Origin: a virus
Virus record (IMG/VR): IMGVR_UViG_3300027792_000011
DNA: 64,000 bases
Reading direction: 5' to 3' (one strand)
Below the pieces are notes generated by a model. It searched no databases and had not been told where the DNA came from. It saw nothing but the letters and a program-made list of their open reading frames with translations. Below are positions 46,943 to 48,344 of the stretch, piece after piece. The translations under genes and the position numbers were made by a program. The first letter of the stretch is position 1; the number at the start of each line of letters is the position of its first letter.

Positions 46943-47410
46943 ATGGAACCGGAAGAGAAGACCAGAAGGATGTCCGAGTGGGCGGACGGAGTTCAGGACG
47001 GCAGCATCGAATTCCTCGAGGTTGCGCTTGATATGAAGGAGGCGAGCAAGGCTGGCTACGAATGGCCCTGGCTCATCGGCCTCTACCTCGAGATGTTCGC
47101 CAACCTCATTCGGAATGGAAGCTGCGCACCAGATTTCGATGCCAAGCTGAAGACGCGGATAAAGGTGGCGAGGACCACTGCGTCCAGGGGCTACCTCGGC
47201 CCGTTCCAGGAAATGTCGAAGATGCTGTCTGGCGAACAGATCAGCGCCCTCGACAACATGAACGAAGTCTTCATCGAGCTGTGGAACAAGATGCCTGGTA
47301 GCTGCGAGATCGACAAGATATTGAGCGAGGCGGCAACTCCACAGCAACAAGAGCTCCCGATCGTGACTGTTGTTACCCCACCGAATGGCGAGTTCCCGAC
47401 GGCTGTCTAG
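46943..47410 (+). CDS. Hypothetical protein
   Basis: GGAGGTG RBS; strong codon bias. Confidence 0.7.
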   Translation: MEPEEKTRRMSEWADGVQDGSIEFLEVALDMKEASKAGYEWPWLIGLYLEMFANLIRNGSCAPDFDAKLKTRIKVARTTASRGYLGPFQEMSKMLSGEQISALDNMNEVFIELWNKMPGSCEIDKILSEAATPQQQELPIVTVVTPPNGEFPTAV

Positions 47411-47429
47411 TATCAGCCAATAACTACGT

Positions 47430-47847
47430 AAGAGAAGAGGGGCGGCTTAGATCTTTCACTGTGATCCAGGGGACAAGTTACTGGAATCTAGCCGCCCCTC
47501 TTCCCTGTTTCTAGTATCAAAGCTTTCACCTGTCAATGGGAGAGAGGACGGCTTAGATCTTTCTCCTGTGTCCTGAGACCACAGGGTACTGGAATCTAGC
47601 CGCCCACAAACTCTCCCAACCGATCCTAACATTACTCCTGGCGCCAGCGTGCTTCATTACGACCATTCGTACCCAGGTCTCAGGTACCCGGATGCCTCCC
47701 CACAAACACGTCGTGGGGCGCACAAGGACATACGATAGCCGCCACCATATTTGAATCTCCGATGGTGGCCGGAGCAGATCCTTTTGCGATAGGCGCCTTC
47801 ACGCAAAGGATCCGATCATAGAAACAGTCCGTAACTGCTCCTCGATC
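47430..47847 (-). ncRNA. Putative ~410-nt structured non-coding RNA with duplicated 3' domain
   Basis: No ORF of 60 aa or more. Own promoter GAAAAA-17-TATAAG (47854-47882). Multiple stems. Two copies of GGCGGCTAGATTCCAGTA..GAAAGATCTAAGCCG. Confidence 0.65.
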
Positions 47848-47853
47848 AAAGAT

Positions 47854-47899
47854 CTTATATACACGATCTATCGTCTTTTTTCACTTATCTGGGTATAAG
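47854..47899. promoter_or_regulatory. Overlapping divergent promoters
   Basis: Minus-strand TATAAG at 47854-47859; plus-strand GGTATAAG at 47892-47899. Confidence 0.6.
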
Positions 47900-47942
47900 A
47901 CTGACAGAGGAAGACCATTTGACGTGGTCATAGGAGGTTCAT

Positions 47943-48344
47943 ATGGGATGTGTGACCTGTGGAGGCGGAGTAGTAGAGAAACAGGAAGACATGTCGATCG
48001 AAGAGATCGAAGAGGAGCTGCGCGAGATGCGTACTCCAGCAGAGATGGACAAGCTGGAGAAGTGGCTCAAGAACAGGCCATCAGAGGTAGAGAGAGTGGC
48101 CAGGGAATTTCCACCATGGCAGCTATATCGGATCAAGGATCAGGCACCCTACCGATTCACGGTTGAAAAGTCCGTTGTTGCCTCATACAAGTTCGTAGAG
48201 ACCAACAACGGGGTGGAAGCCTACTTCAGAGTGCTACGTAGCCCGATCGGATACGCTGGCGTAGTCGCCCACATTAGCCCCGCATTCTTGGAACCGATCA
48301 CTCTTGATGATCTGAAGGAGGAGGTGAAGAATGAGGATCGTTGA
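47943..48344 (+). CDS. Hypothetical protein
   Basis: AGGAGG RBS; first gene of the right-hand operon. Confidence 0.65.
   Translation: MGCVTCGGGVVEKQEDMSIEEIEEELREMRTPAEMDKLEKWLKNRPSEVERVAREFPPWQLYRIKDQAPYRFTVEKSVVASYKFVETNNGVEAYFRVLRSPIGYAGVVAHISPAFLEPITLDDLKEEVKNEDR

What the first reader, a model, noticed from the sequence alone, without database searches (positions are those of the whole stretch)
47430..47882. ~410-nt structured ncRNA cassette with tandem loop-E-like arms and a predicted kissing loop
Seen: an ORF-free gap with its own cassette promoter and a hairpin + TCTT-ACGT end that echoes the TTAGCT terminators. Minus-strand stems: GGAGCAG/CTGCTCC, GATCCTTTGCG/CGCAAAAGGATC, GCCACCAT/ATGGTGGC, CCCCAC/GTGGGG and GTACCT/GGGTAC. 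Two long arms (about 47538-47617 and 47434-47503) share GGCGGCTAGATTCCAGTA..GAAAGATCTAAGCCG, with an AGUA/GAA internal loop and different apical loops. The loop GUCUC of one arm is complementary to the loop GAGAC at about 47677-47681. I do not recognise it as a known family. Inference: a new phage RNA acting as a protein sponge/decoy (both apical loops carry GGA; AGUA/GAA resembles loop E/sarcin-ricin motifs) or as a scaffold.
Basis: partly seen in the sequence, partly recalled or inferred. Interest (0 to 1): 0.75.

Follow-up and report, generated by a model that had tools for sequence, protein, structure and literature searches.

The report
New structured phage RNA gene
A small clade of uncultured ~174-kb wetland/sediment phages carries a self-contained gene for a ~420-nucleotide, highly folded non-coding RNA with two near-identical long hairpin arms; it matches no known RNA family and its function is untested.

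Summary
Window 47411-47942 is the largest ORF-free gap of a complete, circular ~174-kb phage contig (GC 51%) that was binned into a 60%-GC MAG.

On the minus strand it carries a member of the phage's own promoter family (TATATAAGATC). Ten of twelve such sites run into an SD+ORF within 26-58 nt; this one runs into ~420 nt without a conserved ORF.

Partial or complete homologues exist in three other metagenome contigs (L005, L007, L016). More distant relatives have the two flanking genes adjacent, so the unit is an inserted cassette.

Comparative analysis supports seven helices: P1-P5 and two ~80-nt arms.
- 93-98% of pair cells are kept, against 36-55% when partners are slid.
- Ten pairs show double-sided changes.
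- G·U outnumbers A·C 39 to 5, so the minus-strand RNA is the selected molecule, not DNA or the plus strand.

The arms keep an invariant internal-loop core (…CCAGUA/GAAAG…, sarcin-ricin/loop-E consensus), while their basal and apical stems drift.

There is no Rfam hit. It is not a VIPR guide, and the retron, CsrB-like, ToxI and Racr readings find no support or could not be tested. The proposed kissing loop survives as a conserved 6-nt complementarity, but that is chance-level on its own.

Best guess, with low confidence: a trans-acting RNA offering two equivalent protein-binding sites, as decoy or scaffold. The scan's other window read the same stretch; nothing comparable was noted on other DNA.

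The parts
47851..47884 (-). Cassette promoter of the RNA: GTGAAAAAAG (-35-like), then GATC, then TGTATATAAGATC (extended -10-like; hexamer TATAAG at 47859-47854)
   Evidence: Member of a phage-wide promoter family. The block is about 100% identical in L005 and L007. Activity is inferred, not measured.
47814..47847 (-). Predicted 5' end (about 47847, 7 nt after the -10 hexamer) and 5'-terminal hairpin P1
   Evidence: RNAalifold on three sequences. 95.5% of cells paired; only one-sided changes. The start site is inferred from promoter spacing.
47777..47812 (-). Hairpin P2 (GAUCCUUUGCG / CGCAAAAGGAUC)
   Evidence: Three pairs with changes on both sides in the tool count; four by hand alignment of window, L005 and L007.
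47741..47769 (-). Hairpin P3 (GCCACCAU / AUGGUGGC); its loop holds the conserved CGGAG
   Evidence: The closing pair is U-A, G-C or A-U in the three sequences.
47692..47723 (-). Hairpin P4 (CCCCAC / GUGGGG) with outer extension GUGC/GCAU
   Evidence: Two pairs change C-G to U-A in L005 and L007.
47671..47693 (-). Hairpin P5 (AUCCGGGU / ACCUGGGU) with loop ACCUGAG
   Evidence: Invariant in window, L005 and L016. The loop CCUGAG (plus-strand 47679-47684) is complementary to the arm B loop.
47630..47641 (-). Conserved unpaired CCAGGAGUAAUG in the linker between P5 and arm B
   Evidence: Identical in window, L005 and L016. The ORF that starts here is not conserved: 58 aa in the window, 7 codons in L005.
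47537..47618 (-). Arm B: an 82-nt hairpin. Order: basal stem, invariant core (5' half at 47587-47601, 3' half at 47549-47563), CCAGUA/GAAAG internal loop, apical stem CCUGUG/CACAGG, loop GUCUCAGGA
   Evidence: Folds alone with z -4.7. The apical stem changes U-A to C-G in L005 and L016, and the basal stem has two double changes.
47431..47506 (-). Arm A: a 76-nt hairpin with the same core (47479-47493 and 47443-47457) and a different apical hairpin. Probable 3' end or terminator of the RNA, possibly also of the convergent plus-strand operon
   Evidence: Folds alone with z -7.4. One G-C to A-U double change in L005. In L005 the apical part is replaced by a hairpin 29 nt longer. The terminator role is inferred.
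47890..47899 (+). Divergent plus-strand promoter-like TGGGTATAAG for gene 47943-48344, inside the same ultra-conserved block
   Evidence: Matches the TGnnATAAG family. Conserved in L005 and L007.

Best explanation
The gap is a stand-alone gene cassette for a non-coding RNA of about 420 nt, read from the minus strand.

How it is made (inferred):
- A promoter of the phage's own cassette type starts transcription near 47847.
- The RNA folds into a 5'-terminal hairpin (P1), four short hairpins (P2-P5), a ~50-nt linker and two ~80-nt arms.
- It probably ends at, or is trimmed to, arm A near 47430.

How it most likely works (inferred): the RNA acts in trans. Its two arms present the same sequence-invariant internal loop (5' ..AGAUUCCAGUA / GAAAGAUCU.. 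3', matching the AGUA/GAA bulged-G consensus) on variable stems. That gives two equivalent docking sites for one RNA-binding factor, likely a dimer or two copies, of phage or host origin. The RNA would then titrate that factor (decoy) or organise it (RNP scaffold). The 5' domain and a possible P5-loop/arm-B-loop contact would fix the geometry.

Shown here: the cassette, the strand, non-coding status, the helices, and core invariance against stem drift.
Inferred: the transcript ends, the S-turn fold, protein binding, and the decoy or scaffold role.

I put about 0.85 on 'a genuine structured ncRNA gene' and about 0.35 on the two-site protein-binding mechanism. The confidence given is for the whole statement.
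For: - Promoter family.
- No conserved ORF. Eight of 11 indels against L005 are not multiples of 3. Over L005's chance 127-aa ORF, differences fall 25/28/21 by codon position, with 13 synonymous and 38 nonsynonymous changes, and the frame is broken in the window.
- Structure: z -5.6. In the 5' domain 92.6% of cells pair, against 36-50% when partners are slid; 6 pairs change on both sides, reached by 0 of 500 shuffles. In the arms 98.2% pair, against 44-55% slid; 4 double-sided pairs, reached by 4 of 500 shuffles.
- Strand: 39 G·U cells against 5 A·C cells.
- Arm core: identical in both window arms and in L005 and L016, apart from one U to C change. Meanwhile the basal stems differ, the apical stems covary, and one apical part is replaced outright.
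- The core occurs only at this locus in the phage and the MAG.
- Insertion: relatives at 50-61% protein identity have the flanking genes adjacent or overlapping.
Against: - No transcript data; both ends are predictions.
- No canonical intrinsic terminator was found.
- No candidate partner protein was identified. The neighbouring genes have no Pfam, PHROG or Atlas assignment.
- Only about four distinct sequences exist, two of them partial, so covariation statistics are thin.
- Core invariance could also reflect RNA-RNA tertiary contacts or a processing signal rather than protein binding.
- GGA motifs are not significantly enriched.
Confidence: 0.35

Rival explanations
1. RNA mimic used in counter-defence. 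The twin arms copy a host guide, repeat or antitoxin RNA, as RNA anti-CRISPRs (Racr) or pseudo-ToxI do, and soak up the cognate defence protein.
For: - Tandem conserved hairpin units behind a cassette promoter of the type that also drives small accessory genes near a Csx3/Crn3-like gene.
- The core is invariant, as expected for a mimic.
Against: - No CRISPR array or Cas1 in the MAG, and no similarity of the core to anything in the MAG. The MAG-phage link is itself unsupported.
- The ToxN search was uninformative, because its control matched in none of the 14 control genomes.
- Units of about 106 nt are unlike ToxI (36 nt) or CRISPR repeats.
- The pattern scan of 185,579 species genomes found only one chance hit, inside a kinase gene.
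Confidence: 0.12
2. Mainly a cis element. The arms are a bidirectional terminator/insulator and RNase III-type processing sites, placed between a plus-strand operon and the divergent promoter pair. The upstream RNA body has no trans function.
For: - The arms sit exactly between convergent transcription units.
- Where the cassette is absent, the two plus-strand genes are in one operon, so an insertion needs a terminator and a new outward promoter, and the latter is present.
- Long near-perfect hairpins are classic RNase III substrates (general knowledge).
Against: - It does not explain about 230 nt of conserved, covarying P1-P5 structure.
- It does not explain why two arms keep an identical 29-nt core across phages while their stems drift.
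- Arm B has no U-rich tail.
- The G·U bias shows selection on one strand only, whereas a bidirectional terminator should be kept on both.
Confidence: 0.15
3. RNA-only architecture. The molecule folds or multimerises through the P5-loop/arm-B-loop pairing (CCUGAG/CUCAGG), as the phi29 pRNA ring or the ROOL/GOLLD assemblies do, and works as a structural or catalytic RNA.
For: - The 6-nt complementarity lies wholly in two loops and is untouched in window, L005 and L016, while adjacent loop bases and the stems change.
- Duplex energy is about -9 kcal/mol.
- Many loops and junctions are conserved, which suggests a tertiary fold.
Against: - No covariation in the loops.
- Complementarity of this length arises in 12% of loop shuffles.
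- No match to pRNA, ROOL, GOLLD or any ribozyme in Rfam.
Confidence: 0.1
4. Base-pairing regulator, or precursor of small RNAs cut from the arms, acting on phage or host mRNAs. This includes antisense action on the convergent gene 46943-47410 by read-through.
For: - A conserved unpaired segment, CCAGGAGUAAUG.
- The RNA converges on a plus-strand gene, and the terminator is weak.
Against: - The best complementarity elsewhere in the phage is 14 nt, E = 0.23, which is chance level.
- No Hfq family protein was found.
- Host targets could not be tested.
Confidence: 0.1
5. Replication-origin transcript. A promoter-driven structured primer RNA (ColE1 RNA II or T4/T7 origin style), with the DNA region serving as an origin.
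For: - It is the largest ORF-free region of the genome, with a strong promoter and G-rich RNA segments.
Against: - No GC-skew inflection at the site.
- Not AT-rich.
- GATC density is ordinary for this phage: 10 in the gap, reached by 12% of windows.
- Close relatives lack the cassette altogether at this position, which is odd for an essential origin.
Confidence: 0.06
6. A small protein is encoded, for example the 127-aa minus-strand ORF seen in L005.
For: - L005 has an open 127-aa frame across the P1-to-arm-B region.
Against: - That ORF starts upstream of the predicted transcription start and has no SD.
- It is split by a stop and a frameshift in the window, which is identical in at least 3 independent assemblies.
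- Substitutions show no third-position bias: 25/28/21.
Confidence: 0.02

Closest known systems
phi29-family packaging RNA (pRNA, Rfam RF00044)
   Same: Phage-encoded, ORF-less, own promoter, multi-helix RNA with complementary loops that could pair between helices or molecules.
   Different: pRNA is about 120-174 nt, occurs in small podoviruses next to the genome end, and has a defined three-way junction. There is no sequence or structure match here. This RNA is about 420 nt, lies in a ~174-kb myovirus, and has twin S-turn-type arms.
Protein-sponge sRNAs of the CsrB/RsmZ type
   Same: Repeated hairpins offering the same short motif several times. GGA is present in the arm loops, the P3 loop and the linker.
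   Different: - GGA is not significantly enriched.
- The repeated, invariant element is a 29-nt internal-loop core, not a GGA loop.
- No CsrA was detected in the phage or the MAG.
- No Rfam match.
RNA anti-CRISPRs (Racr) and pseudo-ToxI antitoxin mimics of phages
   Same: Phage non-coding cassettes with tandem hairpin units that act as decoys for host defence proteins.
   Different: Those are recognisable by likeness to a host CRISPR repeat or a ToxI repeat. No such template was found. The unit length (about 106 nt) and the architecture differ.
Large structured phage-associated RNAs (ROOL, GOLLD)
   Same: Several hundred nucleotides, many conserved helices, phage context, unknown biochemical role.
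   Different: No Rfam hit to either. This RNA is much narrower in distribution, with about four sequences in one phage clade.
Sarcin-ricin / loop E (bulged-G, S-turn) motif
   Same: The arm internal loop has the AGUA / GAA consensus flanked by helices, identically in all copies.
   Different: This is only a sequence match. The neighbouring positions (CC on one strand, an extra A on the other, a non-canonical pair above) are not the rRNA contexts. No GAGA tetraloop as in the 23S SRL. The 3D fold is untested.
   Same: Non-coding cassette of the same phage with its own promoter.
   Different: vrRNAs are about 100 nt with 9-16 YNNGG repeats plus a tail (bioRxiv 10.64898/2026.04.26.720920, read). 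Here the longest run of GG at 5-nt period is 3.

Membership tests
Any Rfam 15 family | Covariance-model score at or above the family's gathering threshold | tested here: not met
   No hit over the whole window. In the permissive search, only chance hits to two miRNA-precursor models and archaeal RNase P, at 9-21 bits against thresholds of 72-90.
phi29 pRNA | Match to RF00044; location beside the left genome end of a phi29-like podovirus | tested here: not met
   No Rfam match. The genome is a ~174-kb circularly assembled contig with a tail-sheath homologue.
CsrB/RsmZ-type CsrA sponge | Many GGA motifs in hairpin loops, well above background | tested here: inconclusive
   13 GGA against 8.6 ± 2.4 expected; 6% of shuffles reach it. 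GGA is in the arm B loop, the arm A loop, the P3 loop and the linker.
CsrB/RsmZ-type CsrA sponge | CsrA/RsmA partner present in host or phage | tested here: not met
   No PF02599 match in the phage or the 92%-complete MAG. The true host is unknown.
RNA anti-CRISPR (Racr) | Hairpin units resemble the CRISPR repeat of a host system | tested here: inconclusive
   No array, no Cas1 and no core-like sequence in the MAG. The MAG is not shown to be the host.
Type III antitoxin / pseudo-ToxI | Short (about 34-45 nt) tandem repeats; ToxN-like toxin nearby or in the host | tested here: not met
   Two units of about 106 nt. No minus-strand gene follows, because the overlapping 161-aa ORF lies antisense to the real plus-strand gene. 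The ToxN search found nothing, but its control also failed.
Retron msr/msd | Adjacent reverse transcriptase | tested here: not met
   No RVT_1 match anywhere in the phage or the MAG.
VIPR vrRNA | 9-16 tandem YNNGG repeats followed by a conserved tail | tested here: not met
   Longest GG run at 5-nt period is 3 on the minus strand and 2 on the plus strand. Definition taken from bioRxiv 10.64898/2026.04.26.720920.
Sarcin-ricin / loop E motif | AGUA opposite GAA between two helices | tested here: met
   CCAGUA / GAAAG in all arm copies.
Sarcin-ricin / loop E motif | S-turn backbone with bulged G, trans U·A and sheared A·G pairs | not testable with these tools
   Needs chemical probing or a solved structure.
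Intrinsic terminator | G+C-rich hairpin followed by a U run | tested here: inconclusive
   The scan finds none in the gap. Arm A is followed by UCUCUUACGU in the window and UUUUCUUAC in L005. It does not match the hairpin + T-run + AGCT sites.

The most novel reading that the evidence does not exclude
This is the founding example of a new class of large (about 420 nt), complex-folded phage ncRNA. Its two identical S-turn arms and a loop-loop contact would build a defined three-dimensional particle, either an RNP with a still unknown partner or an RNA-only assembly. The phage would deploy it from an accessory-type promoter for host takeover or counter-defence.
Probability: 0.25. Interest if true: 0.8.

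Novelty: new variant of a known kind. Interest (0 to 1): 0.55.

Why it matters
Stand-alone structured RNAs of several hundred nucleotides are rare in phages. The few that are understood (pRNA, RNA anti-CRISPRs, antitoxin mimics) each revealed a new way in which RNA does a job usually done by protein.

This one is a clean, self-contained cassette with clear comparative support for its fold and a striking duplicated, sequence-frozen internal loop. That makes it a tractable object: the arm can be used directly as bait.

Its value is limited for now by three things: the narrow distribution (one clade of uncultured wetland/sediment phages), the unknown host, and the lack of expression data.

Tried and rejected
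- Known families: Rfam at gathering and permissive thresholds, none.
- tRNA/tmRNA: none.
- DNA similarity to 50,697 phage records: none.
- Pattern and protein-guided scans of IMG/VR and of JGI metagenome contigs: nothing. These collections may leave out this genome and its near relatives, since L005 is itself a JGI contig.
- Pattern scan of 185,579 species genomes: one chance hit, inside a histidine-kinase gene.
- CM of the 5' domain against 150 relatives of the MAG: none.
- Searching the whole records behind L002, L003, L005 and others was not possible.
- Protein-coding reading: rejected.
- Leader or riboswitch of a minus-strand operon: rejected, because the downstream minus-strand ORFs lie antisense to syntenic plus-strand genes.
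- Origin of replication: no skew or GATC signal.
- VIPR guide array: grammar absent.
- Retron: no RT.
- CsrA or Hfq partner: not found.
- Trans targets in the phage: chance level.
- Host link of the MAG: no shared sequence and no CRISPR array, with GC 51% against 60%. The contig is probably mis-binned.
- The single-sequence MFE fold of the window uses long-range helices (GAUCCU/AGGAUC, GGCGCC/GGCGCC) that are not kept in L005. I discarded them in favour of the comparative model.
- A long-range pairing CUGUUUCUA/UAGAAACAG (the 3' strand of P1 with the inter-arm linker) is kept in L005 with a bulge and one possible compensatory change. It competes with P1 and remains undecided.
- Neighbouring proteins: no Pfam, PHROG or Atlas lead.

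Full report
**Context**

The window is G000:C1:15796-79795. C1 is 173,992 bp with a 55-bp terminal overlap, so it was assembled as a circle. Its GC is 51%, against about 60% for the other 350 contigs. It shares no sequence with them, and the MAG has no detectable CRISPR array. C1 is therefore a complete phage genome, with a tail-sheath homologue, that was probably binned by accident. The host is unknown.

Nearly all genes around the finding are on the plus strand. The gap 47411-47942 lies between 46943-47410 (155 aa) and 47943-48344 (133 aa). Neither protein has a Pfam, PHROG or Atlas assignment.

Yes.
- The two arm halves (15 nt and 18 nt) are each present exactly twice in the window, against 0.08-1.9 chance matches expected with up to 3 mismatches. 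A fuzzy search finds them nowhere else in the phage or the MAG.
- The region folds much better than dinucleotide shuffles on both strands. The minus strand gives -207.9 kcal/mol and z -5.6; the plus strand gives -178.6 kcal/mol and z -4.7.
- Each arm alone gives z -3.4 to -7.4 and the same architecture in every copy.

**Its own promoter**

A scan for TG-N(1-2)-[GT]ATAA[GT] brought out a clear promoter family.
- The 11-mer TATATAAGATC occurs six times in the phage, always on the minus strand, against 0.08 expected.
- Of the twelve TATAAGATC sites, ten are followed within 26-58 nt by an SD, a start codon and an ORF.
- The site at 47859 has the full upstream pattern (GTGAAAAAAG … GATC … TGTATATAAGATC), but nothing translatable follows it.
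- Back to back with it lies a plus-strand TGGGTATAAG element for gene 47943.
- The whole divergent block is almost 100% identical in the homologues, although the flanking proteins are only 68-81% identical.

Promoter activity and the start near 47847 are inferences from this pattern.

**Relatives**

Protein searches with the two neighbours found few relatives. Their contigs show the following.
- (a) Identical copies of the locus in at least three independent assemblies (L013-L015).
- (b) A full homologue in L005, with a 560-bp gap and 78% nucleotide identity over the RNA.
- (c) The 5' half in L007, where the contig ends.
- (d) The 3' two-thirds in L016, and the 3' end in L017.
- (e) No gap at all in relatives at 50-61% protein identity, where the flanking genes abut or overlap (L002-L004, L008-L012).
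- (f) One 65% relative with a gap of only 200 bp, but its DNA was not retrievable.

So the unit is an inserted, self-contained cassette, moron-like, confined to a small clade.

**Non-coding**

- The ORFs in the window are at most 58 aa.
- The one that starts at the conserved AGGAGUAAUG stops after 7 codons in L005.
- L005 has a 127-aa open frame. It begins upstream of the predicted start site and is broken by a stop and a frameshift in the window.
- Against the window, that frame shows 13 synonymous and 38 nonsynonymous codon changes, and differences spread 25/28/21 over the three codon positions.
- Eight of eleven indels between the window and L005 are not multiples of three.

**Structure**

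RNAalifold and hand inspection give P1 to P5 and the two arms.

| Helix | Window coordinates |
|---|---|
| P1 | 47847-47814 |
| P2 | 47812-47777 |
| P3 | 47769-47741 |
| P4 | 47723-47692 |
| P5 | 47693-47671 |
| Arm B | 47618-47537 |
| Arm A | 47506-47431 |

5' domain. I built a covariance model and used it to realign the four available sequences.
- 92.6% of pair cells are standard pairs, against 36-50% when the 3' partners are slid by 1-3 columns.
- Six pairs change on both sides; 0 of 500 shuffles reach this, and slid controls give 0-2.
- Even so, P3 of L005 stayed one column out of register. By hand it pairs 7 of 8.

Arms.
- 98.2% of cells pair, against 44-55% slid.
- Four pairs change on both sides; 4 of 500 shuffles reach this.

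With three or four related sequences these numbers are indicative rather than a formal test. They all point the same way.

**Which molecule is selected?**

In the model helices, G·U pairs outnumber A·C pairs 39 to 5. A G·U on the minus strand is a C·A mismatch on the plus strand. The fold is therefore maintained for the minus-strand RNA, not for plus-strand RNA, and not for duplex or cruciform DNA.

**The arms**

Both arms have the same order: basal stem, then GGCU-AGAU paired with AUCU-A-AGCC (one bulged A), then an internal loop with CCAGUA opposite GAAA, then an apical hairpin.
- The 15-nt and 14-nt core halves are identical in window A, window B, L005 B and L016 A and B. L005 A has a single U to C change.
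- Around this frozen core everything moves. The basal stems of A and B are unrelated in sequence.
- The apical stem of B changes U-A to C-G in L005 and L016.
- The apical part of A is replaced in L005 by a hairpin 29 nt longer.

Recent duplication or gene conversion would homogenise whole units. A sharply bounded invariant core on drifting stems instead indicates sequence-specific recognition of that core.

AGUA/GAA is the consensus of the bulged-G (sarcin-ricin/loop E) motif. That the arms adopt this fold is an inference.

**The kissing loop**

- What is conserved in window, L005 and L016 is CUCAGG in the arm B loop and CCUGAG in the P5 loop. Indels and substitutions fall right next to these six bases, but not inside them.
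- The P5 register that puts CCUGAG in a loop (CCGGGU/ACCUGG) is invariant.
- The duplex is worth about -9 kcal/mol. However, six complementary bases between some pair of loops arise in 12% of loop shuffles.

The contact is plausible but not shown.

**The 3' end**

Arm A is followed by a U/C-rich tail, but not by the hairpin + T-run + AGCT form of the few clear terminators of this phage. The simple terminator scan reports nothing. Arm A may stop both the RNA and the convergent plus-strand operon. This is inferred.

**What it is not**

- No Rfam family and no tRNA or tmRNA.
- Not a VIPR guide. vrRNAs have 9-16 YNNGG repeats, and the longest such run here is 3.
- Not a retron: no RT.
- No CsrA or Hfq partner, and GGA enrichment is marginal.
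- No ToxN was found, although that control failed.
- No Cas1 or CRISPR array with which to test a Racr reading.
- No trans target in the phage above chance.
- No origin-type skew or GATC signal. GATC is three-fold over-represented across the whole phage.
- Literature searches gave no matching RNA.

**Mechanism**

The firm part is a cassette that makes a stable-looking, multi-helix RNA from the minus strand.

For function I favour a trans-acting RNA whose two identical internal-loop sites bind two copies of one factor, as decoy or scaffold. This is the simplest account of a duplicated, frozen, non-helical core on variable stems, combined with a separately conserved 5' domain.

The rivals cannot be excluded without transcript and binding data:
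- a defence-RNA mimic;
- a cis terminator or processing module;
- an RNA-only assembly through the loop-loop contact;
- a base-pairing regulator;
- an origin primer.

Their odds are given in the rivals section.

**Verdict**

This is a real, new structured ncRNA gene of a small clade of uncultured phages, with unknown function. It lies far from every curated RNA family, but it belongs to a known general kind: autonomous phage ncRNA cassettes with repeated hairpin units. It is worth follow-up as a candidate motif. The narrow distribution and the missing host temper the score.

Noticed in passing
window 47851-47940: About 90 nt holding the two divergent promoter-like elements and the 5' UTR of gene 47943 is almost 100% identical in L005 and L007, although the flanking proteins are only 68-81% identical. 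The UTR includes the inverted repeat GACCACGTCAAATGGTC just before the SD. This suggests a shared regulator-binding site or UTR structure.
   Followed up: partly
whole phage contig C1; window sites 1426, 18340, 18793, 19475, 47859, 61748 (minus) and 32334 (plus); further sites lie beyond the window: There is a phage-wide promoter family. It runs ..GAAAT.. N .. GATC. GTA TATAAGATC, followed by AGTAGAAAGGAG and a start codon. The TGTATATAAGATC subtype occurs only on the minus strand and drives small cassette genes among plus-strand operons. A TGTTATAAGATC subtype occurs only on the plus strand.
   Followed up: partly
whole contig C1: GATC is about 3-fold over-represented in the phage: 12.3 per kb, against 3.9 expected from base composition and 7.3 per kb in the MAG.
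   Followed up: no
G000 contig C1 against the other contigs: C1 is a circularly assembled 174-kb phage genome with GC 51%, inside a 60%-GC, 351-contig MAG. It has no shared sequence with the rest, and the MAG has no CRISPR array, Cas1, CsrA or Hfq hit. The bin assignment is probably spurious.
   Followed up: partly
window 47507-47536 (minus strand, linker between the arms): The linker ACAGGUGAAAGCUUUGAUAC resembles the 3' half of an arm, ACAGGAGAAAGAUCUAAGCC (14 of 20 bases). A 10-nt direct repeat TCTAGTATCA follows each arm, at 47406-47415 and 47510-47519. This may be the remnant of a third unit or of the duplication that made the arms. The second copy is not kept in L005.
   Followed up: no
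window 47748-47760 (minus strand, P3 loop): The P3 loop GAUUCAAAU contains a T-loop-like UUCAAAU and resembles the arm core AGAUUCCAGUA. It is the same in L005 but different in L007.
   Followed up: no
L005:5544-5927 (minus strand): A 127-aa ORF lies open across the RNA homologue in L005. It shows no coding-type substitution pattern and is broken in the window, so gene callers may annotate it wrongly as a protein.
   Followed up: yes
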